A stretch of DNA of 28,772 bases from Clostridia bacterium (GTDB taxonomy: Bacteria; Bacillota; Clostridia; Oscillospirales; CAG-272). The DNA is taken from the NCBI GenBank assembly GCA_017648425.1, contig JAGCJD010000174.1, positions 1-28,772 on the forward strand, in the 5' to 3' direction. Positions 1,285-16,292 of the stretch are shown piece after piece. The translations under genes and the position numbers were made by a program. Position 1 is the first letter of the stretch. Each line of letters starts with the position of its first letter. The notes under the pieces are model-generated. The model was not told the DNA's origin and searched no databases. It was given only the letters and a program-made list of their open reading frames with translations.

Positions 1285-1908
1285 TCACAGCGCCTTGTAT
1301 GCCCCTATGATAGTTGCAGTTACAAAGTCAGCGCTTATTATCGATGCAAGGATTACTGCGAGTATCTTGCATGTTGACGGCGGTATTCTTAGCGCAAGTC
1401 TGTACAGTGTTTCCCAAAGCGTTGCAAAAAACAGTGTTACAAGAAATCCCCATAGCAGACTGTATCCAAGACACACTATTCCAAAAAGATTAAATGCGCG
1501 CTCTGAATAATCCCAGAGTGTAATTCCTATCGCTCTATAAGCAAGTCCTGTTAAAAGCTCTGCTATTGTGGACGCGAGCGTTGTTAGTATAAAATAAATA
1601 AAAAAACGATGGACGGGAGTTGAGATAAGCCGTTTGCCTAAGCTGTTTCTTTTGAGTGGCTCTCCTATCAGACCGCCTATGTTTTTTGGCGTTCCGAAAA
1701 GAACAAAGGACAATATTATGCAAGCTCCGTATATCGGACACACAGGAAGAAAAAGAAGCCCTCGGTCACCACGAGCATTATATATAATAAGTCGTCCCGC
1801 TTTTTCAAAGCACCAACCCATAAAGGATATAAGTATTCCGATAAGCGTCAGTCTGCACGCAAATAAAAATTTGTCCATTCCTTTGTCCCGTTGCTCTTTT
1901 TGTGACAT
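1285..1908 (-). CDS. DUF1113-like membrane protein (putative ABC transporter permease family)
   Basis: 207 aa, several hydrophobic helices, motifs SFMGWCFE, RGLLFLPVCPIYG, LWDYS, SLLWG; GGAGGT RBS. Confidence 0.75.
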   Translation of the reverse strand: MSQKEQRDKGMDKFLFACRLTLIGILISFMGWCFEKAGRLIIYNARGDRGLLFLPVCPIYGACIILSFVLFGTPKNIGGLIGEPLKRNSLGKRLISTPVHRFFIYFILTTLASTIAELLTGLAYRAIGITLWDYSERAFNLFGIVCLGYSLLWGFLVTLFFATLWETLYRLALRIPPSTCKILAVILASIISADFVTATIIGAYKAL

Positions 1909-2010
1909 ATATTACCTCCATGAAAACCTTTTCAACTAATAGCATTAATCATGGAGGGCGGTTTTTATACATATATTTTGTTAGAACTTATTTTGGAGGA
2001 AGGGGCAAAA

Positions 2011-2915
2011 ATGACAGAAAATAAAGGCATGGACAAAAGTGTATTTATGCGCGGGCGCGGACTTGACGATGCTCAGGTAGCTGAGGCGCGTGAAAAATAC
2101 GGTAGCAACACGCTTAATGTCAGAAAAAGCAAGAGCTTTTTGAGAAGATTTTTTGAAAATCTAGGCGACCCGGTTATACGAATACTTTTGGTCGCGCTCT
2201 GCGTAAATCTTTTCTTTGTGTTTAAAGGCGGAGATATAGCCGAAACGGTAGGTATAGCCATTTCGGTGTTTCTTGCCGCTTTTATATCTGCTCTCTCGGA
2301 GAGCGGGGGAGAAAATGCGTTTCGCCGATTGTCACGCGAATGCGCGGACGGTGTGTGCCGTGTAAGGCGAAACGGCAGGATAACGACAGTGCCCATAGAC
2401 GAGATAGTTGTGGGGGACATAGTGCTTGTAAGCGCGGGAGAAAGGATACCTGCTGACGGATACATAATAAGCGGAGGTGTATCCGTGGATCAATCCGCGA
2501 TAACCGGGGAGAGCAAGGAAAAAGAAAAAAAGCCCTCGTCGGGGCTTGACCGCTCTCCATCGTCCCCGTCGGCGCTTTTGCGCGGCTGTCCCGTGCTTTC
2601 GGGCGAGGGGGTAATGCAGGTGTTTGCTGTTGGGGATAATAGCTTTTTGGGTAAAATATCAATAGAGGTACAGACCGAAACAAGAGAAAGTCCACTCAAA
2701 CTGAGACTCACCCGACTTGCTCGTCAGATAAGTCGTCTTGGCTATCTTGCGTCTGTTCTTGTATCACTTGCCTTTTTGTTCAATTGCTTTGTAATTGACA
2801 GCGGATTTGAATGGCAGCTCGTTCTTTTAAAGCTCAGAGATATACCTTATTTGCTTGAAAAATTACTTCACGCGTTCATGCTCGGATTAACAATAATAGT
2901 CGTGGCAGTTCCTGA
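2011..2915 (+). pseudogene. 5' half of a PMCA-type Ca2+-translocating P-type ATPase, interrupted by prophage
   Basis: EAREKYGSN, DEIVVGDIV, GERIPADG, VDQSAITGES (actuator TGES), TM segments, then IVVAVP; similarity stops at the PEGL position (reads PDGAP), there is no DKTGT, and the frame runs into non-homologous DNA to a stop at 3081; RBS GGAGG before ATG 2011. Confidence 0.9.
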
Positions 2916-2930
2916 CGGAGCTCCACGACT
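2898..2930. other. Putative attL of the serine-recombinase prophage (central GA dinucleotide 2914-2915)
   Basis: Imperfect inverted repeat agtcgtggcagttcct-GA-cggagctccacgact centred exactly where ATPase homology ends. Confidence 0.7.
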
Positions 2931-2954
2931 TGGCTGTTCTATCCTCACATCTTC

Positions 2955-2983
2955 ATTATACCACATTTTTCGACATCTGTCAA
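2955..2983 (-). promoter_or_regulatory. Outward-facing sigma-A promoter at the prophage left end
   Basis: TTGACA-gatgtcgaaaaatgtgg(17)-TATAAT with TGn extended -10 on the minus strand. Confidence 0.75.
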
Positions 2984-3724
2984 TATTTTTTGTGAAAATT
3001 TTTTCCAAAAATCGCAAAAAAATTCAAAAAACAATTTTTTTCGGGGAGTTTCTCGGGGGTTTTTGGGTAAAAGCTCATTGAAAATCAAGTAAAATTTCTC
3101 TTGAAAAAGAGAAAGAGCCACTGAGTTTTCGTGAAAAACACTTTGCTTTATCTTTCGTATTTCCGATATTTCCTCGGAAATACGCTCATGCTTTGAAAAT
3201 GCTGATATTTCGCCGCGTATCTCTCTCGCGATAAGTATTATATAATAATATATATAATATATAACGCATGCGCGCTCGTGTGTACGCGCTTACGCGCGCT
3301 CTCTCGCGCTCGCCGTGCGCTCGGGGGTGGCGGCGGAACGATCTTTTTTTCTGTCTTGGCTGAATTTGTGTGACCGAGTGAAAGACGATAGCGCTCCTGC
3401 GCCCTCAAAAACTGTCTGTAAGGCTAAAAAGGGGCAGGGGGTGCTGTCTTACCCTGCCCATATGCGTAAAGATTAAAATACAGCGTTTTTCAAAAGACAA
3501 TTTTTTCCACCTTTCGACAACACCGAGAGAGACCATTCCCCCCTTCGGGGGGTAAGGGGGGTCTCTCTCTGTCTTGTATATGTCTTGTAAAAGTTTTGTT
3601 TTGTTTCTGTATTGTTTCTGTTTTGTTTTGGGTTCAACCGATAGAGCTTTTTTTGTAAGATCCGGGAGCTCTTTCGGCGGTGATTTTATTTGCGTTATAA
3701 GTCGATTTATTCGTGCTTTATTTA

Positions 3725-5104
3725 TTACGCTTCGTTGAATGTAACATCAAAGCTTCCGTCCTTGTAAACGACTATCTTTTTGAGCGTTCGTCCCCAAAAT
3801 GCCTTCTTGCTTTCGGGGGTGAGCGAATTATACATCTGTTCAAAATCTTTGAGCTCTTTTATGTTTATGAACTCCTGCTCGCGTATCTCTTGTCTTTGCT
3901 TTGCTTCGTCAAGCTCCGCTTTGAGGGATAGATAATCTCTCTCGTATATCTCCTTTGGAATGAGATCGGAAAGGTACAGATCTTTGAGCTTTTCTATTTT
4001 TGCCATTATCTTTGAGGTGTCGGGCGCTCTTTTGGGCACGGACGCCTTTTTCATTTTTATTTCTATATTGTATTTTTTTGCCTCGGAAATAAGGTTTTCG
4101 ACAAGCCACGCTTCCAGCTTTTGCTGATTTATCTGCTTTTGCATTTCGCATTGGAGCATACTTCTCGCGGAACAGCGGTAATAGATTATAGTCTTTCCCT
4201 TAGTGCCGTCCTTTTTCTTGTTTGCGTAGCTGTATGTGCTCATTCTTCTTCCGCATTCTCCGCAGAACATAAGCCCTGTGAAAATATAGACATTCGAGGT
4301 CCTTGTCATTGTGCGCTGTCCTCGTGTTTCAAGCAGGGAAGCGGTAAGCTCAAAGGTCTTTTTGTCAATTATCGCGGGACACCAATTTTCAATTCCGTAA
4401 GCCTCGCCTATATACCATTTATTGGTGAGCATATGCTTCATGGATTTTGCGTCGATCGTTACGCCGTATTCGGTGAATATGTATCTTGCTGTTTCTTTCA
4501 TGGAGCGGCAGTCGATATACTTATCGAATGTGGCGCGAGCGATGTTTGCCCGCTGTTCGTCAATAACGGCGCGCTTGTTTTCTATTTTATATCCGAGAGG
4601 GGTGCTGCCGGATATAACATGTCCGTCCTTTACCATATTGCTGAAAACGAATTTTATCCTCTCGGAGGTGCGGTCGGACTCGTCCTGCGCTATCGCCAGC
4701 TTTATGTTGAGCGCAAGGCGACCATTGGCGCTTGTCGTGTCGTAATCCTCGTCCGTTGCCAGCCACTGTACCTTGTGCTTATCAAGTATTGCCTGAACCT
4801 CGTAATAGTCGGATACATTACGGAACCAACGGTCAAGCTTGACAAAAAGGACGACATCTATTTTGCCGTCACGCACATCTTGTATCATTCGCATAAATTC
4901 CGGGCGAGCCGTGTATTTCTTTCGCGCGGATATGCCCTCATCGGTATAGTGGTCCACAACGGTGAGGTCGTTCTCCTCGGCGTAACGGGAAAGGCGCTCC
5001 TTCTGAGCGTCAAGAGAAACGCCGTGCTGCGCCTGCTCCTCGGTGGAAACGCGGGAGTAAAGCGCCGCCCGTCTTATGCTGTCGTCAAATCGTTTTACCT
5101 TCAT
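3725..5104 (-). CDS. Large serine recombinase (phage integrase)
   Basis: 459 aa; YSRVSTEEQ catalytic Ser motif, DEGISA, KLDRWFRN, recombinase domain (PLGY), zinc ribbon CGECG...YYRC, coiled coil. Confidence 0.96.
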   Translation of the reverse strand: MKVKRFDDSIRRAALYSRVSTEEQAQHGVSLDAQKERLSRYAEENDLTVVDHYTDEGISARKKYTARPEFMRMIQDVRDGKIDVVLFVKLDRWFRNVSDYYEVQAILDKHKVQWLATDEDYDTTSANGRLALNIKLAIAQDESDRTSERIKFVFSNMVKDGHVISGSTPLGYKIENKRAVIDEQRANIARATFDKYIDCRSMKETARYIFTEYGVTIDAKSMKHMLTNKWYIGEAYGIENWCPAIIDKKTFELTASLLETRGQRTMTRTSNVYIFTGLMFCGECGRRMSTYSYANKKKDGTKGKTIIYYRCSARSMLQCEMQKQINQQKLEAWLVENLISEAKKYNIEIKMKKASVPKRAPDTSKIMAKIEKLKDLYLSDLIPKEIYERDYLSLKAELDEAKQRQEIREQEFINIKELKDFEQMYNSLTPESKKAFWGRTLKKIVVYKDGSFDVTFNEA

Positions 5105-5108
5105 TCTA

Positions 5109-5708
5109 TTAAATCCTTTGCTCTGATTGCGTAACCGTGGAATGCTCTTTTATGTACTGTGAAAAGAGGGAGTACAGCTTTTGCTCGCATGGGTCCGTCA
5201 GAAATTTGTCCTTTGAATAAAGAAGCTGCATACGCCTTGCCCGCTCCTCGGCGACATGACGCTCGACCATGCAATATTTTGCTATATACTCGCATGAGGT
5301 AATCCCCATGCCCCAAAGTACGCATGAGGGGCAGAGAATTCTGCGCGCAAACATATCGGCGTACTTTTCGGATACATATTTATCATTTTCCGTTCGCATA
5401 TTCCAATACTGTGAATATTTTATCTCGTGTTCAAGGTAGTAGTGTCCAAGCTCATGGGCTATGGTATATCGAGAGCACTCTATGGGGGCGAGGTCGTTAT
5501 AAATTATGCACCATGTGCTTCCGTCATAGAACGACCTGCCGTTTTCTCCTGCTCGGAGCAGTTTTACGCTACTGTTCTTTATTACTTTTATGCCCTCCTC
5601 TCTCCTCGCTATTTTGATTATATCAATAGGCAGAGAGCAGAGTTCACTTTTTATGAGGCACTCCCATGAATTGTCCCTTACACACAAATAGTTTTCATAA
5701 GGTCTCAT
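5109..5708 (-). CDS. ImmA/IrrE-family metallopeptidase (anti-repressor)
   Basis: 199 aa; RYTIAHELGH (HEXXH) and EKYADMFA; lies between integrase and repressor as in ICEBs1-type modules. Confidence 0.9.
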   Translation of the reverse strand: MRPYENYLCVRDNSWECLIKSELCSLPIDIIKIARREEGIKVIKNSSVKLLRAGENGRSFYDGSTWCIIYNDLAPIECSRYTIAHELGHYYLEHEIKYSQYWNMRTENDKYVSEKYADMFARRILCPSCVLWGMGITSCEYIAKYCMVERHVAEERARRMQLLYSKDKFLTDPCEQKLYSLFSQYIKEHSTVTQSEQRI

Positions 5709-5734
5709 TTTCAGTTGGCAATTATTTTATAGCT

Positions 5735-6175
5735 TTATAGCAGTGTGTCGTCGGTTTCGGGAGCATTCTTTATGTCTTTCCAATCATTCTTGCTCATTTT
5801 TACTATTTCGTCCTGCCTTTTGTCAGCGGAGCTTGCCGCCGTGTAAATGCAAACATTGCCGTCTGCTTCAAGTCCGAGCAGACAAAGGACAGCGGGCTGC
5901 ATTTCGGGGTGCATACGGTAAGCGCTGAGTACTCTGAGCTCTATATCGGTAAGGTCGTTGCGCTTTATCTGGGGCTCGGTATCCGCGTTGTCGGCAAAAA
6001 AGTATTCGCGACTTACGCCAAAGTACTGCGCCAGCTTTTCAAGCGTGGTCTTTGAGGGGAGAGTGCCGTTCTTCCATTTAGTTATAGAGCCAGCGGAAAT
6101 GCCGAGCTCCTTTACTACCGCAGAGGGAGTTTTTTGATTTGCCTTGCAAAGCTCGTAAAGATTGTTCCAAAACAT
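5735..6175 (-). CDS. XRE/Cro-CI HTH prophage repressor (ImmR-like)
   Basis: Likely start MFWNNLYELC at 6175 (AAAGGA RBS); HTH TPSAVVKELGISAGSITKWKNGTLP...LEKLAQYFGVS. Confidence 0.88.
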   Translation of the reverse strand: MFWNNLYELCKANQKTPSAVVKELGISAGSITKWKNGTLPSKTTLEKLAQYFGVSREYFFADNADTEPQIKRNDLTDIELRVLSAYRMHPEMQPAVLCLLGLEADGNVCIYTAASSADKRQDEIVKMSKNDWKDIKNAPETDDTLL

Positions 6176-6223
6176 AGTGATATTTCCTTTCTTGCATGTT
6201 CTTCCGTAAATTTTATCAGTTTG

Positions 6224-6305
6224 TTTCACATATGGTGAAATAAATTATATATTTCACTGAAAATGAAAAATACATATTGACATTTCATTGAAAGTGAATT
6301 ATAAT
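6224..6305. promoter_or_regulatory. Lysis-lysogeny switch: three 17-bp operators and rightward promoter
   Basis: TTTCAC-atatg-GTGAAA (6224-6240), TTTCAC-tgaaa-ATGAAA (6252-6268), TTTCAT-tgaaa-GTGAAT (6283-6299); the third fills the spacer of TTGACA(6277-6282)-17-TATAAT(6300-6305). Confidence 0.85.
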
Positions 6306-6420
6306 GTTAACACTGTCAAACAAAACAGACATAATTTCACCCAAAAGAATATATTTAACATCATTGTATCACAAAAATTATGCTGTGTCAATAAAAACAA
6401 TAAAAAAAGGAGGTAGAAAA

Positions 6421-6615
6421 ATGTTAAACGGAAAGCTTGTGAGAACGCTCATGAGAGCCAAGGGATACAGTGGCAGAGAGCTTGCGGCAAGGGTAGGGAT
6501 AAGCGAGTCCATGATGTCTTATATTCTGCAAGGGCTCAGAGAGCCGAATGTGCAGACGCTGGTCCGAATTGCCAACGAGCTTGGCTGTTCGCTTGACGAA
6601 ATGATAATAAGATGA
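6421..6615 (+). CDS. Cro-like HTH regulator
   Basis: AGGAGG RBS, ATG 6421; 64 aa with GYSGRELAARVGISESMMSYILQGLREPN...RIANELGCSLD. Confidence 0.9.
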   Translation: MLNGKLVRTLMRAKGYSGRELAARVGISESMMSYILQGLREPNVQTLVRIANELGCSLDEMIIR

Positions 6616-6675
6616 TAGGACAAGTCGGGGGCTGCATATACTGTAACATCTTATGCTTATCGGGAGGTCGGTAGA

Positions 6676-6834
6676 ATGAAGGGTATGACGGCATCAATAA
6701 AGAACGAGCCGAACATGAATTACATAATGAAGGTGCTCTGCGAGCAGCTCTCCCGACAGGAGATAGGCTCGTACGAATATTCGTACAAATTGGAAAGAAA
6801 GGAGAATTGTTTAAAAAATGCAGAACAGGCGTAA
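6676..6834 (+). CDS. Small hypothetical phage protein (52 aa)
   Basis: Below track cutoff; GGGAGG RBS, MKGMTASIKNEPNMNYIMKVLCEQLSRQ..., overlaps the next start. Confidence 0.55.
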   Translation: MKGMTASIKNEPNMNYIMKVLCEQLSRQEIGSYEYSYKLERKENCLKNAEQA

Positions 6835-7138
6835 GCAAGAAAGACAGACACAGCTGACGCTCGAGCTTGGAAGCGGAGTACAGCTCTCAGAGGCTCAGCT
6901 TTGCAGTGTCGTGTCGCTTGTGGTGGGGCTTGAATACCGCAAGGAAAGGCACGGCGCGTGGGCGCTTGACCAAGAGCATTCGAGCAAAAAGTATTTAAGG
7001 TGGAGGTGCAGCGCCTGCGGACACTGGCAGTCGTCAAGGCGTAACGATAAGAGTGAGCAGATATTTTACATGAATTACTGTCCATTCTGTGGTTCGCAGA
7101 TGGACAAGCCCGCAAGGGAGAGGGCTGAGCAGATATGA
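6818..7138 (+). CDS. Phage zinc-ribbon protein
   Basis: RHGAW...RCSACG...NYCPFCGSQMD (two CxxC pairs); AAGGAG RBS. Confidence 0.8.
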   Translation: MQNRRKQERQTQLTLELGSGVQLSEAQLCSVVSLVVGLEYRKERHGAWALDQEHSSKKYLRWRCSACGHWQSSRRNDKSEQIFYMNYCPFCGSQMDKPARERAEQI

Positions 7139-7578
7139 TGAGTAAGCTTATATTTATAATTCTCGCCTGCGCGCTGTTTGCCGCTTTGGGAGCGTTAGGT
7201 GAGAAAATGCTGCGTCAGGGTAAAGGCGAGGCGGATAATTCCGAGGAGGACGAGCCCGAGAGAAAAAACAGCATACGGGTGCTGATAAAGCCCGCAAGGG
7301 AGAGGGCGTATCTTACATGGATAAAAAACACTCAGGAAAGCTTTGAGAGTATTGTGGGCGGTCATATAAAATCGATTACGATAGCAAATGACATGGTAAT
7401 AGTTTGCAACGACGAGGTCGATGTAAGCGCTTCTCGCTTTAACACGAGAATTTGCGGAGAGCAGTTTTTTGGCGATATAATTATTTGCGGAGCAAGTAAT
7501 GAGGGCTTTGACAGTATTCCTGTAAGTGATGAAACGGTAAGACGCATATTCTGCTCGTTGTTCGCTGTGGAGAGGTGA
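7135..7578 (+). CDS. Hypothetical protein with DUF3846-like C-terminal domain
   Basis: N-terminal hydrophobic segment, then VLIKP...FESIVGGHI...IVCNDE...FFGDIIICG. Confidence 0.7.
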   Translation: MMSKLIFIILACALFAALGALGEKMLRQGKGEADNSEEDEPERKNSIRVLIKPARERAYLTWIKNTQESFESIVGGHIKSITIANDMVIVCNDEVDVSASRFNTRICGEQFFGDIIICGASNEGFDSIPVSDETVRRIFCSLFAVER

Positions 7579-7581
7579 GAA

Positions 7582-7776
7582 ATGCTGGAACTTATTGAAA
7601 AAAAGTGCGCGTGGTGCGGAAGGGTGTTCTATCCTGCGTACAATCATGCGTTCGTAGAGGGACACAAGGACGGCAGACCGCGGTTTTATTTCTGTAAGTA
7701 CACCTGTATGCTCCGATACCGCGAGGACAAGGCAAAGCGGCGTAAGTACAGAAAGAGGGACACGGCTGAAAATTAA
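7582..7776 (+). CDS. Small Cys-containing phage protein
   Basis: CAWCGRVF...YFCKYTCM; GAGG RBS, in operon. Confidence 0.65.
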   Translation: MLELIEKKCAWCGRVFYPAYNHAFVEGHKDGRPRFYFCKYTCMLRYREDKAKRRKYRKRDTAEN

Positions 7777-7823
7777 TTGTATTACTTTTATAGTGTATTT
7801 ATTTTTATTAAGGAGGGGATATT

Positions 7824-8024
7824 ATGACCTTCAAGCATGACGGCTATCATGGTGACGGAAGTATGTGTGTTTATGGATATGACAAAAACGGAGTAAAGGT
7901 CGCTATATTCAAGGGTTATCCCAATTTGCGCAGTGATACGGTAACGCTTTATCCGAGGTCGTGTCTTGCGCCGACCAATGAGAAAATCGGAAAGCAGACC
8001 GTTTCGCTCCGTGTTCTTAAATAA
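7824..8024 (+). CDS. Hypothetical phage protein
   Basis: 66 aa, AAGGAGG RBS. Confidence 0.6.
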   Translation: MTFKHDGYHGDGSMCVYGYDKNGVKVAIFKGYPNLRSDTVTLYPRSCLAPTNEKIGKQTVSLRVLK

Positions 8025-8126
8025 CCGAGGGCGGACAAGCCCTTACCGAAAGTGGAGCTAAGGCTCTTTTTCGGTCTTGTATTGTATCTTATCTTATCGA
8101 CCGTAGGTTAAAGGAGAATTTAAGTC

Positions 8127-8495
8127 ATGTCAATGTCAATGTCGGGTGTCAGGTCGCTCGAAAAAATGCTTATGCTCGTGGGTGAGCAGATAGAGATAGG
8201 TTGCTTTTCGGGAGAGGAGCGCTCGGTGGCGGAGGATATACGCATGATAATTGCGGAGATATATCTTTTGCCGAATAACGCTATGGTGAGGATAGACGGC
8301 GCGGATATACCCTGCGGACTTGTGGCGCAGGTGTATTCGCGTCTTGACGGAACGCATGTCAGAGCAGTAACGGAAAGATTTTTGCTTATTGATTACCCAA
8401 TAAGACACAAAAAAGCATATATTCGAACCGCTCTTTACAACAGAGTGTTTGAGCAGGAGAGCGCAGAAGCAAATGATTTTCGTTCAAGCGTTTAG
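8127..8495 (+). CDS. Hypothetical protein resembling DUF6017/RepA C-terminal-like domain
   Basis: AAGGAG RBS; C-terminal IRHKKAYIRTALYN resembles replication-initiator C-termini. Confidence 0.55.
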   Translation: MSMSMSGVRSLEKMLMLVGEQIEIGCFSGEERSVAEDIRMIIAEIYLLPNNAMVRIDGADIPCGLVAQVYSRLDGTHVRAVTERFLLIDYPIRHKKAYIRTALYNRVFEQESAEANDFRSSV

Positions 8496-8509
8496 AAACG
8501 GAGAGAATA

Positions 8510-9397
8510 ATGCAAAGAGAACGACAGATAAGGTCGGGGAAGCTGTTAGAGGTGGATTTTTACCCTGTTTTTGAAAACGGTAAAAGGCTTCCCGTAAGAG
8601 CTAAGCGCTCCAAGGTGACCTCTGAGGAGCAACAAAGGTATAACCAAAAGACGGCAGTGAGAAAATTCGTTCGACTTATCAACTCAAATTTTGATAACTC
8701 GGATATACTTCTGCATGTTACATATTCGCCCGAGAACGCCCCCGCGAGCTTTGACGAGGCAAAGCGTGAGCTTTACAATTACATACGGCGCATAAAGCAG
8801 CTTCGCAAAAGGGAACTCGCAAGAATAAGCGAGCTTTGCGGGCGATTTCCCGATGACAAGGAGCTCGTAAAAAAGAGGGACAAGCTAAGCGCGCCTTTTT
8901 TGTATTGCAACACGCTCGAGGAGAATGTTTACAAGACTGGAAGATACAAGGGCATGACCTCGTATCATTTCCACTGCTTTATGACAGGAGGGCTCGAACG
9001 CGATGTTATGGAGGAGGCTTGGGGGTTAGGTGTTCGTGTGAATGCTGACAGATACCGCCCCGACAGGTTCGGGCCCGAAACGGCGGCGAGGTACTGCTCT
9101 AAGGATCCTCGCGGTAAAAAGAGGTTCTGTTCTTCCCGCGGTCTTCGCCGTCCGATAGAAGCAAAGCCGAGGGACGGAAGGATAACGGCGAGGGGCGTTG
9201 AGCGTCTTGCGAAAAAGCGATGTGACGACCGAGAATATTGGGAGAACAGATACAAGGGGTATCGTTTTCTTCGTTGCTTTGCAAGATACAACCCCTATAA
9301 TTGCCACTGGTATGTATCGGTGGTCATGTATCGGGCGGAGAGGGACGAGGACATGCCGCCGTGGGGCGATGTAAATGACGAGCAAATGCTGTGGTAG
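8510..9397 (+). CDS. HUH-endonuclease rolling-circle replication-associated protein
   Basis: Motif I LHVTY, motif II YHFHCFM, motif III ARYCSKD in canonical order. Confidence 0.82.
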   Translation: MQRERQIRSGKLLEVDFYPVFENGKRLPVRAKRSKVTSEEQQRYNQKTAVRKFVRLINSNFDNSDILLHVTYSPENAPASFDEAKRELYNYIRRIKQLRKRELARISELCGRFPDDKELVKKRDKLSAPFLYCNTLEENVYKTGRYKGMTSYHFHCFMTGGLERDVMEEAWGLGVRVNADRYRPDRFGPETAARYCSKDPRGKKRFCSSRGLRRPIEAKPRDGRITARGVERLAKKRCDDREYWENRYKGYRFLRCFARYNPYNCHWYVSVVMYRAERDEDMPPWGDVNDEQMLW

Positions 9398-9427
9398 GAG
9401 AAATAATGGGGAAAGGAGAAGGAGCAT

Positions 9428-9664
9428 ATGTCTATATCTAAGGACAGCATTTTTATTAAATGCCCTTTTTTTAAGGCGCATGATGCAAGGCGTATCTTTT
9501 GCGAGGGCATAGTTAAGGATAGCTCTGTCCACCTTTCTTTTATGAGCGCAGATACCAAACGGCAGTACGAAAAAAAGCACTGTGAGCATGGATATGGCTC
9601 ATGCCCTATTTATAAAATAAACGAGCGCAAATACGATGAAATGGGTAATGATACCTCTGTTTGA
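9428..9664 (+). CDS. Small Cys-rich protein directly upstream of the packaging module (candidate late activator)
   Basis: KCPFF...IFCEG...HCEHGYGSCPIY; AGGAG RBS. Confidence 0.7.
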   Translation: MSISKDSIFIKCPFFKAHDARRIFCEGIVKDSSVHLSFMSADTKRQYEKKHCEHGYGSCPIYKINERKYDEMGNDTSV

Positions 9665-9726
9665 GCAAAAAAGATAACATACAGCTTTTAACGCCCGACT
9701 ATCATTTGTTGTTTTTCGGGGGTATA

Positions 9727-9760
9727 GGGCTACCACTTGCTGTTGCTGTTGTTGTATAAT
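9727..9760 (+). promoter_or_regulatory. Putative phage late promoter 1
   Basis: GGGCTACCA-19 nt-TATAAT upstream of terS. Confidence 0.7.
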
Positions 9761-9778
9761 TGTTAAAAAAGGGGGGAT

Positions 9779-10261
9779 ATGGTGCTTAATTGGGAACAGA
9801 TCCGTGTAGATTATATTACTAATGAGTCTGCTTCGTACAGAAAACTTGCTAAAAAATACGGTGTTTCTTACACGGCTGTGGGTGACAAGGCGCGCGCAGA
9901 GGGCTGGATTAAAGAGCGTGAACACTACCAAACCAAAACACTGTCAAAAACAATTGCGGCCGTAAGTAAAAGGCAAGCCTCTCGCGCTACCAGATTACAA
10001 GCCATTACAGACAAGCTTTTGAACAAGATAGAGAGGGCTGTTGATGACCTTGAAATGCGTGAAATCATGACCGATAAAGGCGCTATAAGGCAGATAACAG
10101 GCGCATTGAAGGACATTAAGGATATTCAAATGATCAAGTCTGACGCTGACATAAGGGAGCAAGAGGCGCGCATCAGAGGTCTTGAAAAGCAGATAGAGGG
10201 CGATGTGGGCGCGCAAATAGATATAGTGTTTGCTGACGGAGCAGAGGAGCTTGCAAGGTGA
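9779..10261 (+). CDS. Terminase small subunit (probable)
   Basis: N-terminal HTH NWEQIRVDY...SYRKLAKKYGVS; overlaps the terL start. Confidence 0.78.
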   Translation: MVLNWEQIRVDYITNESASYRKLAKKYGVSYTAVGDKARAEGWIKEREHYQTKTLSKTIAAVSKRQASRATRLQAITDKLLNKIERAVDDLEMREIMTDKGAIRQITGALKDIKDIQMIKSDADIREQEARIRGLEKQIEGDVGAQIDIVFADGAEELAR

Positions 10262-11652
10262 AGCGGATAAGCTGGAATGTGGGAGCTCCAAACGAAAAAC
10301 AACGGCAAATGTTTTTGGATACCCACCGATATATAGGATATGGCGGCGCGAGAGGCGGAGGCAAGTCGTGGGCGGTGCGCAAAAAAATGATATTGCTGTG
10401 CCTTAAATACAGCGGTATAAAATGCGGAATATACCGCAGGACATATCCCGAGCTGCGAAATAATCATGTCGTTCCTCTGCTTACAGAGCTCAGCGGTTTG
10501 GCAAAATACAACGAGAGCAAAAAAACATTTTATTTTCCCAACCGCTCTACGCTTCAACTATGCTTTGCCGACAACCTCAAAGACATAAATCAAAAATTCC
10601 AAGGACAGGAATATGATGCCCTGGCGATAGACGAGGCAACGCAGATAAGCGAGGAATGGTTCTCGATAATTAAAGCTACCATAAGAGGAGTAAATGATTT
10701 TCCAAAGCGTGTGTATATAACCTGCAATCCCGGGGGAATAGGGCATTCGTGGGTGAAAAGGCTTTTTATAGACAAGATATATAAGGACAGCGAAAGGGCG
10801 GAGGATTATAGCTTTATTCAGGCTTTGCCCACCGACAACACGGCATTAATGAACAGCAATCCCGATTATATCAGAACGCTTGAAGCCTTGCCGCCTCAGC
10901 TCAAAAAAGCGTGGTTGGAGGGCTCATGGGACATATTCTTTGGGCAATTCTTTGAGGAGTTTACCAACAATCCCGACCGCTATAAGGATAGATTATGGAC
11001 GCATGTAATAGAGCCCTTTGAAATACCTCCAAATTGGGAGATATACCGCTCGTTCGACTGGGGCTTTGCCAAGCCCTTTTCTTGCGATTGGTGGGCGATT
11101 GACGGCGATGGCAGGGCGTATCTTATATTACAGCTATACGGTTGTAACGGAACGCCTGACGAGGGTGTGAGATGGACGGCGGACAAGGTGTTTTCCGAAA
11201 TTGCAAGGATAGAGAGGGAGCACCGATGGTTAAAGGGAAAATTTATTCGCGGAGTTGCAGACACTGCCATTTGGGCATCAGACGGCGGAGAGCCGATAAT
11301 TGAGAGCGCAGAGCGACACGGCGTATTCTTTGAAAAAGCTGACAAGACGAGAATAAGCGGCTGGATGCAGGTGCATTACAGACTTGCCTTTGATGAAGCG
11401 GGGCGGCCGATGATGTATTTCTTTAACACTTGCAGACACGCTATAAGGACACTGCCGCTGTTGACATACTCGGATACTATGACCGAGGACCTGAATACTG
11501 CGCAAGAGGATCACTTTGCCGATTCGTGCAGGTACTTTTGTATGTCACGACCGATAAAAAGCCGTGATCTGTCAGTGGAATACAAATACAAATTCGATCC
11601 GTTAGATCAATTCAAAGATATGGGCAAAAATAAATATACATATTACGGATAA
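10258..11652 (+). CDS. terL: Terminase large subunit
   Basis: Walker A YGGARGGGKS, Walker B LAIDEATQ, TCNPGGIGHSWV, nuclease domain DWGF and EDHFADSCRY. Confidence 0.95.
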   Translation: MKRISWNVGAPNEKQRQMFLDTHRYIGYGGARGGGKSWAVRKKMILLCLKYSGIKCGIYRRTYPELRNNHVVPLLTELSGLAKYNESKKTFYFPNRSTLQLCFADNLKDINQKFQGQEYDALAIDEATQISEEWFSIIKATIRGVNDFPKRVYITCNPGGIGHSWVKRLFIDKIYKDSERAEDYSFIQALPTDNTALMNSNPDYIRTLEALPPQLKKAWLEGSWDIFFGQFFEEFTNNPDRYKDRLWTHVIEPFEIPPNWEIYRSFDWGFAKPFSCDWWAIDGDGRAYLILQLYGCNGTPDEGVRWTADKVFSEIARIEREHRWLKGKFIRGVADTAIWASDGGEPIIESAERHGVFFEKADKTRISGWMQVHYRLAFDEAGRPMMYFFNTCRHAIRTLPLLTYSDTMTEDLNTAQEDHFADSCRYFCMSRPIKSRDLSVEYKYKFDPLDQFKDMGKNKYTYYG

Positions 11653-11665
11653 CAGGGAGGTACTG

Positions 11666-13558
11666 ATGAATCCATTTAAAACGCTGATAAAGCATGCTCC
11701 TTTGCCAGGAAGCAGGACGATACAAAAGGAAGAATCGGAGGATATAAAGGAAAGCGGAACGGTCGTGGACGAAAAACGCATAGGCGAGTGGATAGCTACG
11801 CTTCGCAGATACAAGAGCGCAAAAGCAACGATAGAGCAAAAGCTTAAAAGCAACGAGAGATTTTGGAGAATGCGACAGTGGAAGGAGGGAGCGCCCGAGG
11901 ACAAGAATGGCATTCCCGCGACAGCATGGCTGTTCACCTGCATACAGTCTAAGCTTGCCGATGCGGTGGAGGCATATCCGAGAGCAAATTTCAGACCGCG
12001 ACAGAGGGACGATGCGGAGGAGGCGAGAATGCTTTCAAGCGTGTGTCCTATAATCGTGGATCAGACAGGATTTAGAAAGACATATAAGAATGTTGCGGAA
12101 TATACGCTTAAAAACGGAGTGGGCGTATATCACATATGGTGGGACGGCGCAAAGCACAACGGACTTGGAGATATAGCTATATCCGAGCAGAATGTGCTTA
12201 ATATATTTTGGGAGCCTGGCATAACGGATATTCAAAGATCAACCTATGTTTTTACTGTGGAGGTCGTTGATATAAGTATACTGCGACACAGATACCCCGA
12301 GCAAGCTCCTAGGATAAAGAGCAAGGTTATTGATGTGAGCAGGTTTATAACAGACGAAAGGGTGGATACGCACGATAAGGTCGTGGTGGTAGATGTCTAT
12401 TACAAGGTAAACGGCGCGCTTCATTACGCAAAGATCGCTGACAATGTATTACTGGAATCGACTGAGAACTGCCCCGAGAGATATCCTTACGGGCTTTATA
12501 AGCACGGAAAATATCCTTTTGTCGTGCAACAGCTCTATCACATAGAGCAGAGCCTTTACGGAACGGGACTTGTGGATATCGGCGCAGATGCGCAGATACA
12601 GATAGACCTTATAAACGAGGCTGTTGTGGAAAACACATTGATGGGAGCAAAACCAAGGTATTTTTCGCAGGTGGGCAACAATTTCAGAGATGAGGATCTG
12701 CTCGATTGGAGAAAAGCGATAGTGCCTTGCGCATCAATATCTGACACCGCATTAAAGCCGATAGAGAGTAAATCCTTGCAGGGCAACTACCTTGATTTTT
12801 TGAACATGAAAACGCAGGAGCTTAAATTTGTTACCTCAAATCAAGATATAAACAACGGCATGGCGCCCTCGGGTATAACTGCCGCTTCGGCATTGGCGGT
12901 GTTGCAGGAGGGAGCGGGACGCTCGTCAAGATTTATCAACAGGACCTTTTATGACGCGTTCTTGGAGGTCATGGAGTTTGTTGTTGAGCTTATGAGAGAA
13001 TTTTACAACACTCAGAGGTGGTTCAGGGTAGCTTCCGATGAGATGGGCGGAGAGGAGGATTTTGTAAGGTATGATAACACGGCGCTTAAAGGCGCTGTCC
13101 AGCTCCTTGAAAATGGGACACAGGCGTACAGAGTTCCCGAGTTTGATATTGAGATAACGGCAGAAAGGGCAAGTCCTTACAAAAAAATGGAGATGAATGA
13201 GCTTGCATTGACATTCTTTAAAATGGGCTTTTTTACTCCGCAAATGACCGATCAGGCAATAGCGTGCTTGTCGATAATGGATTTTGACGGCAAAGAGGAG
13301 ATCATGGACACTATCCGACAAAACGGAGTTCTTGCTGACCGCGTACAGATGCTTCAAGAGCTTGGCATAGCTCTTGCAGCTAAATACAAGGACGCAGAGG
13401 CAATGATGGCGTTACAGCAGAGCTTGGGCGGAGGGGCGCAGTCTATACCGAGCGCAGATGTGGATATACATAGCGCCGTTGCCCCCGATAAAGGCGCGGG
13501 AGAGATAAAGCAGGTGGAGAGGGCGAGAGCTATGGCAAGGAGCAATATCGAGGTATAG
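11666..13558 (+). CDS. Portal protein
   Basis: 630 aa after terL; NFRPRQRDDAEEA, NIFWEPG, YPFV...YGTGLVD, helical repeat pattern. Confidence 0.85.
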   Translation: MNPFKTLIKHAPLPGSRTIQKEESEDIKESGTVVDEKRIGEWIATLRRYKSAKATIEQKLKSNERFWRMRQWKEGAPEDKNGIPATAWLFTCIQSKLADAVEAYPRANFRPRQRDDAEEARMLSSVCPIIVDQTGFRKTYKNVAEYTLKNGVGVYHIWWDGAKHNGLGDIAISEQNVLNIFWEPGITDIQRSTYVFTVEVVDISILRHRYPEQAPRIKSKVIDVSRFITDERVDTHDKVVVVDVYYKVNGALHYAKIADNVLLESTENCPERYPYGLYKHGKYPFVVQQLYHIEQSLYGTGLVDIGADAQIQIDLINEAVVENTLMGAKPRYFSQVGNNFRDEDLLDWRKAIVPCASISDTALKPIESKSLQGNYLDFLNMKTQELKFVTSNQDINNGMAPSGITAASALAVLQEGAGRSSRFINRTFYDAFLEVMEFVVELMREFYNTQRWFRVASDEMGGEEDFVRYDNTALKGAVQLLENGTQAYRVPEFDIEITAERASPYKKMEMNELALTFFKMGFFTPQMTDQAIACLSIMDFDGKEEIMDTIRQNGVLADRVQMLQELGIALAAKYKDAEAMMALQQSLGGGAQSIPSADVDIHSAVAPDKGAGEIKQVERARAMARSNIEV

Positions 13559-13559
13559 C

Positions 13560-13868
13560 ATGATAGCTGTGACCGTAGAGGGGGAATACGCTCTTGTGGT
13601 GGAAGGACACGCGGGACAAGCCCCAAAGGGACAAGATATAGTATGCTCCGCCATGTCTATGCTTATCGGCTCGCTTGCAGAGTTCGTTCTACATAACAGA
13701 GCAAGGTGTATAGATGCCGATGTGGAGCTGACGAACGGATATGCAAGAGTAAGAGCAATTCCTCAAAAGGATTTTGAAAAAGAGCTTTCGGGAGCGTTTT
13801 GCATGGCGACATTGGGTATGGAGATGTTAAAATCACGATACCCCGAATATGTAACGGAAAAAACATAG
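13560..13868 (+). CDS. prp: Phage-encoded Prp-family cysteine protease (prohead maturation)
   Basis: VEGHAG...GQDIVCSAMS catalytic His/Cys motif of ribosomal-processing protease Prp. Confidence 0.9.
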   Translation: MIAVTVEGEYALVVEGHAGQAPKGQDIVCSAMSMLIGSLAEFVLHNRARCIDADVELTNGYARVRAIPQKDFEKELSGAFCMATLGMEMLKSRYPEYVTEKT

Positions 13869-13874
13869 ACAATG

Positions 13875-13908
13875 GGGCTACCACTTAGCGCTTTGATTAT
13901 GATATATT
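13875..13908 (+). promoter_or_regulatory. Putative phage late promoter 2
   Basis: GGGCTACCA-19 nt-TATATT (TGn-extended) upstream of the scaffold gene. Confidence 0.7.
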
Positions 13909-13977
13909 AATATCAAGGAAACGCCAACCTAAAATGGCAGATGGAAGCGCCGACCTAAACGGCAGGAAGGAGTGCGC

Positions 13978-14943
13978 ATGGCACTGAAAAAAACATTTGA
14001 TTTACAGCTCTTTGCAGAGGGCGCGGACGGTGGAGCTCCTGCATCAAGCGGCAGTGGATCAAGCGAGGCAGAGGGAGCAACGGTGGCGAAAAACACAGCC
14101 TATCCAAAGAATATTCCCGAGCGCGCAAAAAAATACTATGACATGGCTATCAAGAAAACGCAGAGTGTCGACACTGCAAACGAGGCTGTCATGGCAGAAA
14201 AAGCAGCGTCCCCCACCGCAGAGGAAACCGTTACTTACGAGCAGCAGCAAGAGCCACGGCAAAAACTGACATATAAGGAGCTCATTAAGTCTGACGAATA
14301 CAAGGCAGAGCATGAGAAGTATGTGCAGAGGGTGGTAAAGGACCGTTTGAAATCCCATTATGAGATACTTGGTCTTGTAGCGCAGAAGTATGGTGTTGAT
14401 GTTAATTCGGAAACATTCAAGGACGATTTGCGCGCAGCACTTGTATCCGATGACAGCGTATATGAAAAATACGCTGAGGAGCATGATGTGTCTATTAACG
14501 AAGCCAAGCGCATGGTGGGCATTGAACAGCAATTAAAGCAGGCGACACAGGAGGCGGCGGAGCGCAAGGAGCAAGAGGAGTACGCTCGTACGATAGACGC
14601 TTTGCGGAGCGTTGCCAAGGGCACAAAATCAGAGTATCCCGAGTTTGATTTGGATACATATATGGCAGACGATCGTTTCAGACGGCTTGTAGTAGCCTTT
14701 GGGGGCGACACTACCAAGGCTTATGAGGCCTTGAACCATAGAACGCTCAAACAGAGAGCGGTCATGGAAGCGGAAACGAGAGCGCAGGCGGCAGTTGCCA
14801 ACAGTGTAAGAGCGAACAAGACGCGTCCGCTGGAAGGCGGAATTTCCTCGACTAACTCAGCAATAGACAGCACTCCCGATTTTAGATCTATGGATCTTGC
14901 GCAGTTGAGGCTGTATGCTGCACAACACAAAATCAAAAGATAG
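13978..14943 (+). CDS. Capsid scaffolding protein
   Basis: Start MALKKTFDLQLFAEG after AGGAAGGAG; acidic coiled-coil between protease and capsid. Confidence 0.82.
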   Translation: MALKKTFDLQLFAEGADGGAPASSGSGSSEAEGATVAKNTAYPKNIPERAKKYYDMAIKKTQSVDTANEAVMAEKAASPTAEETVTYEQQQEPRQKLTYKELIKSDEYKAEHEKYVQRVVKDRLKSHYEILGLVAQKYGVDVNSETFKDDLRAALVSDDSVYEKYAEEHDVSINEAKRMVGIEQQLKQATQEAAERKEQEEYARTIDALRSVAKGTKSEYPEFDLDTYMADDRFRRLVVAFGGDTTKAYEALNHRTLKQRAVMEAETRAQAAVANSVRANKTRPLEGGISSTNSAIDSTPDFRSMDLAQLRLYAAQHKIKR

Positions 14944-14946
14944 TCA

Positions 14947-14966
14947 AGGGGAGAATATTCTCCCCT
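14947..14966. repeat. 20-bp perfect palindrome between scaffold and capsid genes
   Basis: aggggagaatattctcccct directly before the capsid RBS. Confidence 0.8.
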
Positions 14967-14980
14967 AAAAAGGAGAATTT

Positions 14981-15976: not shown

Positions 15977-15994
15977 TTTTATCGGAGGAAATTC

Positions 15995-16243
15995 ATGGCT
16001 ACAACAAGCGGTGAAAAGACAAGAAAGATAACACTTCCGCTTCTTGAAGGGAGAAACGCTGTTCAGGAAGCATTCGTATGTGTCAATTTTAAGCCCTATC
16101 AGATACAGAGAGGCGTGGAGGTAGAGATACCCGAAAGCGTATATAATGTTTTGATGGAATCCGAGAGAGCTAAAAACGAGGCGATACTTGAGCGACAGAA
16201 AAAGGCGCTCAGAAGTCCCGAAAACTCGGAGCGCGTGAATTAA
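15995..16243 (+). CDS. Small virion-module hypothetical protein
   Basis: 82 aa, GGAGG RBS, VCVNFKPYQIQRGVEVEIPESV. Confidence 0.75.
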   Translation: MATTSGEKTRKITLPLLEGRNAVQEAFVCVNFKPYQIQRGVEVEIPESVYNVLMESERAKNEAILERQKKALRSPENSERVN

Positions 16244-16246
16244 AAC

Positions 16247-16278
16247 AAGGGGAGGGGCGTAGTCCCCTCCCGATTTTT
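16247..16278 (+). terminator. Rho-independent terminator after the capsid-proximal gene
   Basis: GC-rich hairpin gggagggg-cgtagt-cccctccc followed by a T tract. Confidence 0.7.
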
Positions 16279-16292
16279 TATAGGAGGAAAGC

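What the first reader, a model, noticed from the sequence alone, without database searches (positions are those of the whole stretch)
2011..2930. Prophage splits a Ca2+ P-type ATPase at the PEGL ion-binding motif: possible excision-controlled gene switch
Seen: ATPase homology stops at VAVP-D-G. An imperfect inverted repeat (2898-2930) is centred on the GA of what should be the Glu codon (CCT GA|N), and the right half mirrors the host half. Known: large serine recombinases cross over at a central dinucleotide, and skin-like elements restore split genes on excision. Inference: precise excision would rebuild PEGL and a working pump, making this a candidate for active lysogeny controlling Ca2+ transport, a target outside the classic sporulation/competence genes.
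Basis: partly seen in the sequence, partly recalled or inferred. Interest (0 to 1): 0.7.

Follow-up and report, generated by a model that had tools for sequence, protein, structure and literature searches.

The report
Prophage splitting a calcium-pump gene
A complete 36-kb phage has been inserted by its own serine integrase into the most conserved codons of a calcium-pump gene in a spore-forming gut Clostridium; cutting it out would restore the gene exactly, and relatives of this integrase use the same spot, some as tiny domesticated cassettes and one group as what looks like a flip switch.

Summary
The ATPase 5' half (2011-2915) stops at VAVP. Its 3' half starts (E)GLPMMIAV on contig C193, which overlaps the window's end by 131 identical bases. 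The insert is a 35.9-kb prophage. In-silico excision at GA (2914-2915) gives an 890-codon PMCA-type pump gene with all P-type motifs.

The integrase (3725-5104, minus strand) belongs to a lineage dedicated to this site. 12 of 14 genomic loci with the closest integrases (48-68% identity) abut an ATPase half. None of 66 more distant loci does.

The lineage also includes 3.3- and 4.0-kb mini-elements. In three species the two pump halves face away from each other around the integrase. There both halves and the integrase are under purifying selection, which points to a domesticated inversion switch.

The host is a spore-former. Ca-ATPases are mother-cell sporulation genes in Bacilli and C. difficile, and orthologues carry a sigE/sigK-like -10 box.

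Regulated excision of this particular prophage is not shown. Only lysogen contigs were seen, at 5-8x depth.

This scan had already noted the same PEGLP target on other DNA (e1-5024402, e1-4396024, e1-2860925). The inverted form was not among them.

The parts
1285..1908 (-). Host neighbour gene (ABC_trans_CmpB family), divergent from the ATPase gene. The same synteny CmpB | ATPase | LRR/Flg_new | DUF1385 is seen at empty sites in related species.
1970..1977 (+). CATATATT, a sigE/sigK-type -10-like box 34 nt upstream of the ATPase start codon, with ATCAT 17 nt further upstream. Candidate mother-cell promoter of the pump gene.
   Evidence: CATA[TC]A.T occurs in 13 of 25 orthologue upstream regions, against 2.5% of random 150-nt windows and a mean of 0.7 of 25 in shuffles (max 4). 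The consensus is as described in PMC3789822.
2011..2915 (+). 5' half of the PMCA-type Ca2+ P-type ATPase gene: codons 1-301 plus the GA of Glu codon 302. Contains Cation_ATPase_N, the A domain with TGES, and TM1 to half of TM4.
2890..2940 (+). attL: host B arm (to 2913), crossover dinucleotide GA (2914-2915), phage P' arm (from 2916).
   Evidence: GA is the only dinucleotide shared by attL and attR that gives PEGL, and 120 of 120 full-length homologues have PEGLP. attP arms are symmetric around GA in four independent elements.
2916..28772 (.). Left 25.9 kb of the prophage. It continues through the 131-nt contig overlap to L003 (C193) position 10182, for a total of 35,908 nt.
2955..2983 (-). 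Perfect sigma-70-type promoter (TTGACA-17-TATAAT with an extended TG) pointing out of the prophage across attL. In the lysogen it is antisense to the ATPase fragment. In the excised circle it would read across attP into the DUF6514 gene.
   Evidence: geometry
3725..5104 (-). Large serine recombinase (459 aa; Resolvase + Recombinase + Zn_ribbon_recom; YSRVSTEEQ catalytic motif), convergent with the ATPase 5' half.
5109..5708 (-). ImmA/IrrE-type M78 metallopeptidase (anti-repressor protease of the lysogeny module).
5735..6229 (-). HTH repressor (ImmR/CI-like), followed by a divergent Cro-like HTH_3 gene at 6304-6615 (+).
8510..18790 (+). Replication initiator (8510-9397), small and large terminase (9779-11652), portal (11666-13558), major head protein (14981-15976), internal-virion-protein-like gene (16598-18790).
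18741..24152 (.). Nested 5.35-kb tyrosine-integrase element inside the prophage, bounded by a perfect 60-nt direct repeat. It is not part of the ATPase switch.
   Evidence: earlier notes e1-5333350, e1-5333351
25293..28772 (+). 5' part of a giant phage ORF (phrog_22978). It continues in frame into C193 to position 4667 (2671 aa in all) and so ties the two contigs together.

Best explanation
Shown:
- A complete temperate phage of 35.9 kb is integrated by its large serine recombinase into the Glu codon of the PEGL (TM4, ion-binding) motif of a PMCA-type Ca2+ P-type ATPase gene. The host is an uncultured, spore-forming gut Clostridium.
- Strand exchange was at the dinucleotide GA (2914-2915).
- The lysogen therefore carries two dead gene halves 36 kb apart.
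- attL x attR recombination would restore an 890-codon gene with every P-type motif.
- The recombinase belongs to a lineage that uses this conserved coding motif as its dedicated attB in many Clostridia. Carriers are phages, 3-4-kb mini-elements and, by earlier notes of this scan, ICEs.

Inferred:
- Excision needs an unidentified RDF, as in all large serine integrases.
- The pump gene is probably a mother-cell sporulation gene, so the element most resembles SPbeta in spsM: an active prophage whose excision, on induction and possibly in the sporulating mother cell, also repairs a host gene.
- I put about 0.35 on excision of this particular prophage being developmentally or otherwise regulated for the host's benefit, and about 0.5 on it being plain, tolerated insertional inactivation.

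The confidence given here is for the shown, structural part.
For: Both gene halves are present and complementary in the TIGR01517 profile (positions 41-327 and 324-877). The contigs join by a 131-nt exact overlap, and a 2671-aa ORF crosses the join in frame. The reconstruction is in frame, with TGES, PEGL, DKTGT, DPPR, TGD and GDGIND.

Phage gene set. LSR domains.

The GA crossover rests on three things. It is the only shared dinucleotide compatible with PEGLP, which is invariant in 120 of 120 homologues. attP is symmetric around GA in ours and in L136, L137 and L068. In-frame VAVPEGLP is restored in all four.

Site dedication: 12 of 14 loci with LSRs of 48-68% identity abut an ATPase half, against 0 of 66 loci at 51% or less. 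Further examples come from protein contexts and from G088.

All other family genomes searched have the gene intact, and empty sites show the same synteny.

Spore-former. Ca-ATPase as a mother-cell gene: PMC12999246 and PMC3789822. Conserved sigE/K-like -10 box.
Against: No attB or attP junction was found in the assembly or in the two metagenomes that hold the strain. These are contigs only, at 5-8x depth, so there is no power to detect rare excision.

No RDF was identified. No sigE/K-like box lies near the integrase or the DUF6514 gene of this prophage.

Orthology of this PMCA-type pump to YloB or CD2833 was not tested.

An intact allele of this species was not found in the 5.8-billion-protein collection (best hit 75% identity), so the pre-integration site is inferred, not observed.

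The genome is a 76%-complete MAG of 298 contigs.
Confidence: 0.88

Rival explanations
1. Plain insertional inactivation. The phage simply uses a conserved coding motif as a reliable landing pad, as others use tRNA genes. The host tolerates loss of the pump, and the gene is restored only as a by-product of prophage induction, which kills the cell.
For: This is a full, apparently functional phage with an ordinary ImmR/ImmA lysogeny module. Only the lysogen form was seen. No sporulation-type promoter lies near the integrase. The attB region is conserved at first and second codon positions across the family, which makes it a good anchor. The genome has other P-type ATPases.
Against: The same integrase lineage persists as 3.3-4.0-kb elements that have lost all virion genes but keep an intact integrase. 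It also persists as an inverted form under purifying selection. That is hard to explain if re-joining the gene had no value. The pump is conserved and intact in all other family genomes searched.
Confidence: 0.5
2. A skin/SPbeta-type developmental rearrangement. In the sporulating mother cell an RDF is produced and the prophage is excised. The pump gene is rebuilt and expressed from its sigE/K-type promoter to load Ca2+ for Ca-DPA. The forespore keeps the prophage.
For: The host has SpoIVA and SpoVAC/EB. Ca-ATPases are mother-cell sporulation genes in Solibacillus/Bacillus and sigE-dependent in C. difficile. A sigE/K-like -10 box is conserved upstream of orthologues, including this gene at 1970-1977. 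Nearly all known intervening elements sit in mother-cell genes, and small ones keep only the recombination unit (PMC6957869), as the mini-elements do here.
Against: There is no direct evidence of excision. No RDF was found. No sporulation promoter was seen on the prophage side. Orthology to YloB/CD2833 is untested. The promoter motif is a consensus match only.
Confidence: 0.35
3. Vegetative 'active lysogeny' of the Listeria comK type. Reversible excision without lysis occurs in response to Ca2+ or envelope stress, and the episome re-integrates afterwards.
For: The strong outward promoter at 2983-2955 would drive the attR-side DUF6514 gene only in the excised circle. That gives the excised state its own expression programme.
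Against: Nothing in the data shows excision or an episome. No Ca2+-responsive element was recognised. The Rfam scan found nothing. The sporulation link explains the target choice better.
Confidence: 0.08
4. Assembly or binning artefact. The two ATPase halves belong to different strains or populations, and the gene is not really split by one element in one genome.
For: The genome is a fragmented MAG (298 contigs, 76% complete, 3.7% contamination). The join rests on a 131-nt overlap.
Against: An independent Logan contig of 15.9 kb bridges attL. The overlap is exact and a 2671-aa ORF crosses it in frame, with consecutive phrog_22978 profile coordinates. The halves abut at the same profile position. 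The same architecture recurs in many single contigs elsewhere.
Confidence: 0.03

Closest known systems
SPbeta prophage in spsM of Bacillus subtilis (SprA integrase, SprB RDF)
   Same: An active, full-size prophage inserted by a large serine recombinase inside a host ORF of a spore-former. Precise excision rebuilds the gene. The integrase sits at one prophage end (PMC4191935, PMC5499854).
   Different: The target here is a Ca2+ P-type ATPase at its PEGL motif, not a polysaccharide synthesis gene. The integrase is unrelated at the family level (best NCBIfam hit is XisF, 165 bits against a cut-off of 375). No SprB-like RDF or sporulation promoter was identified. Excision has not been observed.
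skin in sigK (SpoIVCA / CD1231+CD1234), vfbin in spoVFB, gin in gerE (GirC+GirX)
   Same: Degenerate or non-phage elements of a few kb that keep essentially only the serine recombinase unit and split a mother-cell gene. The 3.3-kb (L068) and 4.0-kb (L137) relatives found here look the same (PMC5595907, PMC6957869).
   Different: The window's element is a whole phage, not a remnant. The target gene is new to the papers I could search.
Listeria phi10403S/A118 in comK (active lysogeny)
   Same: A serine-integrase prophage splits a host gene. Excision restores it and can act as a regulatory switch (A118 integrase: PMC3556126; the comK switch from my own knowledge).
   Different: Reversible, non-lytic excision is the defining feature there and is untested here. 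The host context here points to sporulation rather than to intracellular growth.
Other PEGLP-targeting serine-recombinase elements noted by this scan (e1-5024402, e1-4396024, e1-2860925)
   Same: The same target motif in the same pump family. One of them shares sequence words with this integrase.
   Different: Those are an 18-kb element and two conjugative elements, whereas this one is a tailed phage. I did not examine their DNA. None of the notes mentions the mini or inverted forms.
Synthetic Bxb1 integrase + gp47 'recombinase addressable data' inversion latch (own knowledge)
   Same: The inverted relatives (L136, L138-L141) have attL and attR of a large serine integrase in inverted orientation about 4 kb apart. 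Recombination would therefore flip the segment rather than excise it.
   Different: The inverted form is a natural arrangement in relatives, not in this window. Flipping has not been observed.

Membership tests
Large serine recombinase (phage-type serine integrase) | N-terminal resolvase catalytic domain with the Ser nucleophile, followed by a Recombinase domain and a zinc-ribbon domain | tested here: met
   PF00239 (E 2.5e-32), PF07508 and PF13408 are all above their cut-offs. The YSRVSTEEQ motif is present.
Large serine recombinase (phage-type serine integrase) | Short attP/attB sites with quasi-symmetric arms and a non-palindromic central dinucleotide at which strands are exchanged | tested here: met
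   GA is the only shared core compatible with PEGLP. attP arms are symmetric at +/-18-22 around GA in four elements. Elements occur in both orientations relative to the gene (classes A and B).
Large serine recombinase (phage-type serine integrase) | A cognate recombination directionality factor is needed for attL x attR | tested here: inconclusive
   No RDF was identified. The DUF6514 gene next to the att site opposite the integrase is a positional candidate only.
P2B (PMCA-type) Ca2+-translocating P-type ATPase, TIGR01517 | P-type signature motifs TGES, PEGL, DKTGT, TGD and GDGxND, plus N- and C-terminal cation-ATPase domains | tested here: met
   All are present in the in-silico rejoined protein. 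Pfam domains are found in both halves.
P2B (PMCA-type) Ca2+-translocating P-type ATPase, TIGR01517 | Score above the curated equivalog cut-off (507 bits) | tested here: inconclusive
   The halves score 165.7 and 377.5 bits separately; a simple sum of 543 is only rough. The full-length homologue P0130 (71% identity to the 5' half) scores 580. The best solved relatives are ACA8, PMCA1/2 and LMCA1. Ion specificity was not tested.
Sporulation gene-intervening elements (skin, SPbeta, vfbin, vrin, gin) | The element interrupts an ORF, and precise site-specific excision restores it | tested here: met
   Shown in silico only: 890 aa, in frame.
Sporulation gene-intervening elements (skin, SPbeta, vfbin, vrin, gin) | The host is an endospore former | tested here: met
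   SpoIVA ATPase (378 bits) and five SpoVAC/SpoVAEB matches in G000.
Sporulation gene-intervening elements (skin, SPbeta, vfbin, vrin, gin) | The interrupted gene is expressed in the mother cell | tested here: inconclusive
   By analogy only (YloB, PMC12999246; CD2833 sigE-dependent, PMC3789822), plus a conserved CATA[TC]A.T box upstream of 13 of 25 orthologues. Orthology to those genes was not tested.
Sporulation gene-intervening elements (skin, SPbeta, vfbin, vrin, gin) | Excision occurs during sporulation, driven by a sporulation-controlled RDF or integrase | not testable with these tools
   Only assembled contigs of two low-depth metagenomes were available. No such promoter was seen near the integrase.
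Active lysogeny / phage regulatory switch (comK type) | Reversible excision without virion production that switches the host gene on | not testable with these tools
   No junction or episome data.
Temperate tailed phage (Caudoviricetes) | Terminase, portal and major head protein, plus a lysogeny module | tested here: met
   PHROG matches to terS, terL, portal, major head protein and internal virion protein. An HTH repressor, ImmA and the integrase are present.

The most novel reading that the evidence does not exclude
The integrase lineage to which this prophage belongs has been domesticated more than once. In one group of species (L136, L138-L141) a secondary inversion put attL and attR in inverted orientation. 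The integrase can then no longer excise anything. It can only flip a ~4-kb segment that joins or splits the Ca2+-pump gene. This would be a natural large-serine-integrase inversion latch, probably fired in the sporulating mother cell from the pump's own promoter. In the split state that promoter also transcribes the small DUF6514 gene. The window's phage would be the free-living form of the same recombination unit.
Probability: 0.45. Interest if true: 0.85.

Novelty: new member of a known kind. Interest (0 to 1): 0.65.

Why it matters
Gene-splitting serine-integrase elements are the classic example of programmed DNA rearrangement in bacteria, but the list of targets is short.

This case adds a calcium pump, cut at its ion-binding motif. 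It links phage integration to Ca-DPA loading, which is central to spore heat resistance and hence to the persistence and transmission of gut Clostridia.

One integrase lineage appears here at several stages at one site: whole phages, 3-4-kb remnants and an inversion form. Earlier notes of this scan report ICEs at the same PEGLP site, though I did not examine their DNA, and only one of those notes (e1-5024402) is tied to this integrase by sequence. This offers a rare series for studying how a phage integration module becomes a host regulatory device.

The integrases have a short, well-defined attB in a near-universal coding motif (VAVPEGLP). Natural variants that differ only in the orientation of the central dinucleotide may interest those who use serine integrases as tools.

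Tried and rejected
1. Crossover in the GGA of the Gly codon rather than the GA of the Glu codon. Rejected: it would make the host gene PDGL, while 120 of 120 homologues have PEGLP, and attP and attB arms are symmetric about GA.

2. Reads. Two runs of one animal-gut study hold the strain, as Logan contigs only, at 5-8x. One 15.9-kb contig bridges attL. No loose end at 2915 was among those listed. There is no power to see rare excision, and no RNA holder was listed.

3. IMG/VR. No close relative of the integrase was found (best 25% identity), and there was no exact attP match.

4. Complex prediction of the integrase C-terminal part with DUF6514: no verdict (0.14, below the mark). It gives no evidence either way.

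5. Search for a joined ('ON') pump protein of the inverted-type species: best hit 85% identity, from another species with an empty site.

6. Search for an intact allele of the window's own species: best hit 75% identity.

7. G088 has a junction at VAVPEGL followed by an integrase C-terminus, but the rest was not binned.

8. ENA contigs behind L053/L054 could not be extended.

9. Rfam gathering scan of the window: nothing.

10. A sigE/K-like box near the integrase or DUF6514 of this prophage: none.

11. The TIGR01517 control genomes did not tell me whether B. subtilis YloB is in the same equivalog.

12. L060 and L069 (integrases of 64% and 59% identity) show no ATPase half within the DNA held, so they are undecided.

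13. The closest integrases in the host's own GTDB family sample are only 39% identical and sit elsewhere.

Full report
THE OBSERVATION

The window is a whole contig (C198) of a 1.37-Mb, 298-contig, 76%-complete MAG. An ORF starting at ATG 2011 matches Cation_ATPase_N and E1-E2_ATPase up to residue 301 and TIGR01517 (PMCA-type Ca2+-ATPase) profile positions 41-327. After ...IIVVAVP it reads D-G-A-P-R-L-G-C-S with no further homology.

It is too short to be significant on its own, and the repeat finder did not list it at its 10-nt minimum. Its weight comes from its position.

A 459-aa large serine recombinase (Resolvase + Recombinase + Zn_ribbon_recom, YSRVSTEEQ) lies 810 nt downstream on the opposite strand (3725-5104). 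It is followed by an ImmA-type M78 peptidase and an HTH repressor.

THE OTHER HALF, AND WHAT LIES BETWEEN

A search of the window's own genome for Cation_ATPase_C found a 591-codon open frame on contig C193. It begins C-R-E-G-L-P-M-M-I-A-V and carries DKTGT, DPPR, TGD, GDGIND and the C-terminal domain. It matches TIGR01517 positions 324-877, which is exactly where the 5' half stops.

The last 131 nt of the window are identical to the first 131 nt of C193. An ORF open at the window's end (25293-28772, phrog_22978) continues in frame to C193:4667, 2671 codons in all. The two contigs are therefore adjacent.

The insert is 35,908 nt. It encodes a replication initiator, small and large terminase, portal, major head protein, an internal-virion-type protein, the giant protein and tail-like genes. 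It also holds a nested 5.35-kb tyrosine-integrase element bounded by a perfect 60-nt repeat, which other agents of this scan have already treated.

THE CROSSOVER

attL reads ..GTT CCT GA C GGA.. and attR reads ..CGG GA G GGA CTG... The host must supply CCT (Pro) on the left and CTG (Leu) on the right. The exchange therefore lies either in GA (2914-2915) or in the following GGA.

- The GGA option would make the host gene PDGL. All 120 full-length homologues retrieved have PEGLP.
- The reconstructed attP has symmetric outer arms at +/-18-22 around GA.
- The same holds in three independent relatives where both junctions lie on one contig. L137 has perfect 11-nt arms 12 nt from GA on each side; L136 and L068 are similar.

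Joining at GA gives 2673 nt, 890 codons, no stop...VAVPEGLPMMIAV....

A LINEAGE DEDICATED TO THIS SITE

In 200 genomes of the host's GTDB family, the orthologue is an intact 870-1050-codon frame wherever the contig allows. The one exception is G088. There the frame ends at VAVPEGL and is followed within 25 nt by the C-terminal end of an integrase-like gene on the other strand.

The integrase has more than a hundred relatives at 53-72% identity in the 5.8-billion-protein collection. A scan of species-representative genomes with an alignment of them returned 80 loci.

- Of the 14 loci with the closest integrases (48-68% identity), 12 have an ATPase half right beside the integrase. The other two are undecided for lack of flank.
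- Of the 66 loci at 51% identity or less, none has an ATPase half.
- Contexts of four more proteins agree.

The attB region is conserved at first and second codon positions across species. Elements sit in either orientation relative to the gene. In class A, as here, the integrase is convergent with the 5' half. In class B it is co-directional, 20-30 nt upstream of the 3' half. This is what a quasi-symmetric site with a flipped central dinucleotide predicts; that sentence rests on established knowledge of serine integrases.

This scan had already noted the same PEGLP target three times on other DNA: an 18-kb element and two ICEs.

MINI-ELEMENTS AND AN INVERTED FORM

L068 holds both gene halves 3,302 nt apart. 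The insert contains only DUF6514, HTH, ImmA and the integrase. L137 holds them 3,978 nt apart, with two small membrane ORFs, an HTH and the integrase.

In L136 (G201), and in L138/L139 and L140/L141 found through related integrases, the order is:

HAD(-), DUF6514(-), ATPase 5' half(-), a 57-61-aa ORF(-), HTH(+), ImmA(+), integrase(+), ATPase 3' half(+).

The two halves diverge, and attL and attR are inverted relative to each other about 4 kb apart.

This is not a misassembly. L138 and L139 are 99.3% identical and L140 and L141 are 99.95% identical, each pair coming from different samples and assemblers. The three lineages are collinear at 77-87% nucleotide identity, host flanks included.

Flipping the segment between the sites would give an intact pump gene plus an attP flanked by DUF6514 and the integrase.

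dN/dS across these lineages, at dS 0.6-1.5:

| Gene | dN/dS |
|---|---|
| ATPase 5' half | 0.07-0.09 |
| ATPase 3' half | 0.07 |
| Integrase | 0.12-0.19 |
| DUF6514 | 0.13-0.25 |
| ImmA | 0.14-0.20 |
| HTH | 0.08-0.11 |

A dead gene would not stay open and constrained over that distance. The simplest reading is that the gene is periodically rejoined by inversion. That the halves work as two polypeptides cannot be excluded: the 3' half has ATG ATG behind a GAGGGA that could serve as a ribosome-binding site. But that would not explain the constraint on the integrase. No joined form was found in the protein collection; the best hit, at 85% identity, is another species with an empty site.

WHY A CALCIUM PUMP

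- The host has SpoIVA and SpoVAC/EB.
- YloB, the Ca2+-ATPase of Bacilli, is made in the mother cell at engulfment and sits around the forespore. It is needed for dehydrated, heat-resistant spores (PMC12999246).
- In C. difficile the putative Ca2+-ATPase CD2833 is sigE-dependent (PMC3789822).
- That paper describes sigE and sigK promoters as sharing a CATA-type -10 box such as CATATAAT. CATA[TC]A.T occurs within -120..+30 of the start in 13 of 25 orthologue upstream regions that otherwise do not align. The background is 2.5% of random windows and 0.7 of 25 in shuffles, with a maximum of 4. Here it is at 1970-1977. In L138 a CATATAAT precedes the small ORF that heads the split operon.
- Known intervening elements sit almost always in mother-cell genes, and small ones keep only the recombination unit (PMC6957869; PMC5595907).

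The target therefore fits the sporulation paradigm. Orthology of this PMCA-type pump to YloB or CD2833 was not tested. The best solved relatives are ACA8, PMCA1/2 and LMCA1.

WHAT IS NOT SHOWN FOR THIS PROPHAGE

- The assembly holds no attB or attP.
- The two runs that hold the strain are contigs at 5-8x and show only the lysogen.
- No RDF was identified. DUF6514, the gene next to the att site opposite the integrase here and in L068, L136 and L138-L141, is a positional candidate, and the complex prediction gave no verdict.
- No sigE/K-like box lies near the integrase or DUF6514.
- A perfect sigma-70-type promoter at 2983-2955 points out across attL. In the circle it would drive DUF6514, so that gene's expression depends on the integration state, but what this achieves is open.

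VERDICT

The structural claim is solid at about 0.9. A regulated, host-serving excision of this phage is possible (about 0.35), as is plain tolerated inactivation (about 0.5).

The kind is known (SPbeta, skin, comK phages). I found no paper naming a P-type ATPase as such a target.

The most novel element lies in the relatives: a conserved arrangement that turns a large serine integrase from an excision enzyme into an inversion enzyme.

Noticed in passing
L136 (G201:C115) 2909-6888; L138 4388-8240; L139; L140 470-4373; L141: The ATPase 5' and 3' halves face away from each other around HTH-ImmA-integrase, with DUF6514 just downstream of the 5' half. So attL and attR are inverted ~4 kb apart. The arrangement is conserved in three species-level lineages, and all parts are under purifying selection.
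   Followed up: partly
L137 (G202:C14) 5949-9927; L068 (rc) 513-3815: Mini-elements of 3,978 and 3,302 nt split the same codon. They carry the integrase and a few small genes and no virion genes. Rejoining gives VAVPEGLP in frame.
   Followed up: partly
window 2955-2983 (-), L003 9841-10119 (-): A perfect TTGACA-17-TATAAT promoter 40 nt inside attL points outward. After excision it would sit about 95 nt upstream of the DUF6514 gene at the other prophage end, so this transcription unit is split by integration.
   Followed up: partly
window 18741-24152: A 5.35-kb tyrosine-integrase element is nested in the virion operon. It is bounded by a perfect 60-nt direct repeat and carries its own diverged copy of a 51-codon phage gene. 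It was already treated elsewhere in this scan.
   Followed up: partly
window 25293-28772 and L003 1-4667: One 2671-codon phage ORF (phrog_22978) spans the contig break. The assembler broke inside it despite a 131-nt exact overlap.
   Followed up: yes
window 700-1150: Upstream of tRNA-Ser(GCT) (1052-1143, minus strand) there is a direct repeat of about 120 nt (about 713-835 and 926-1045) and a tRNA-3'-end-like fragment near 826-845. Read depth in this bin is 25-80 times that of the neighbours in all three runs. It may be scars of other integrative elements or a multi-copy repeat.
   Followed up: no
L064/L065/L067 versus window, L056-L063: Related elements sit in opposite orientations in the same attB: the integrase is next to the P arm in one class and next to the P' arm in the other. 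This is a natural case of orientation being set by the central dinucleotide.
   Followed up: partly
L003 10181-10200; L136 about 2897-2925: At attR a GAGGGA lies 6 nt before ATG ATG (the MM of PEGLPMMIAV), so the 3' half could be translated on its own. In the inverted type the integrase stop codon lies inside the outer arm of attP.
   Followed up: no
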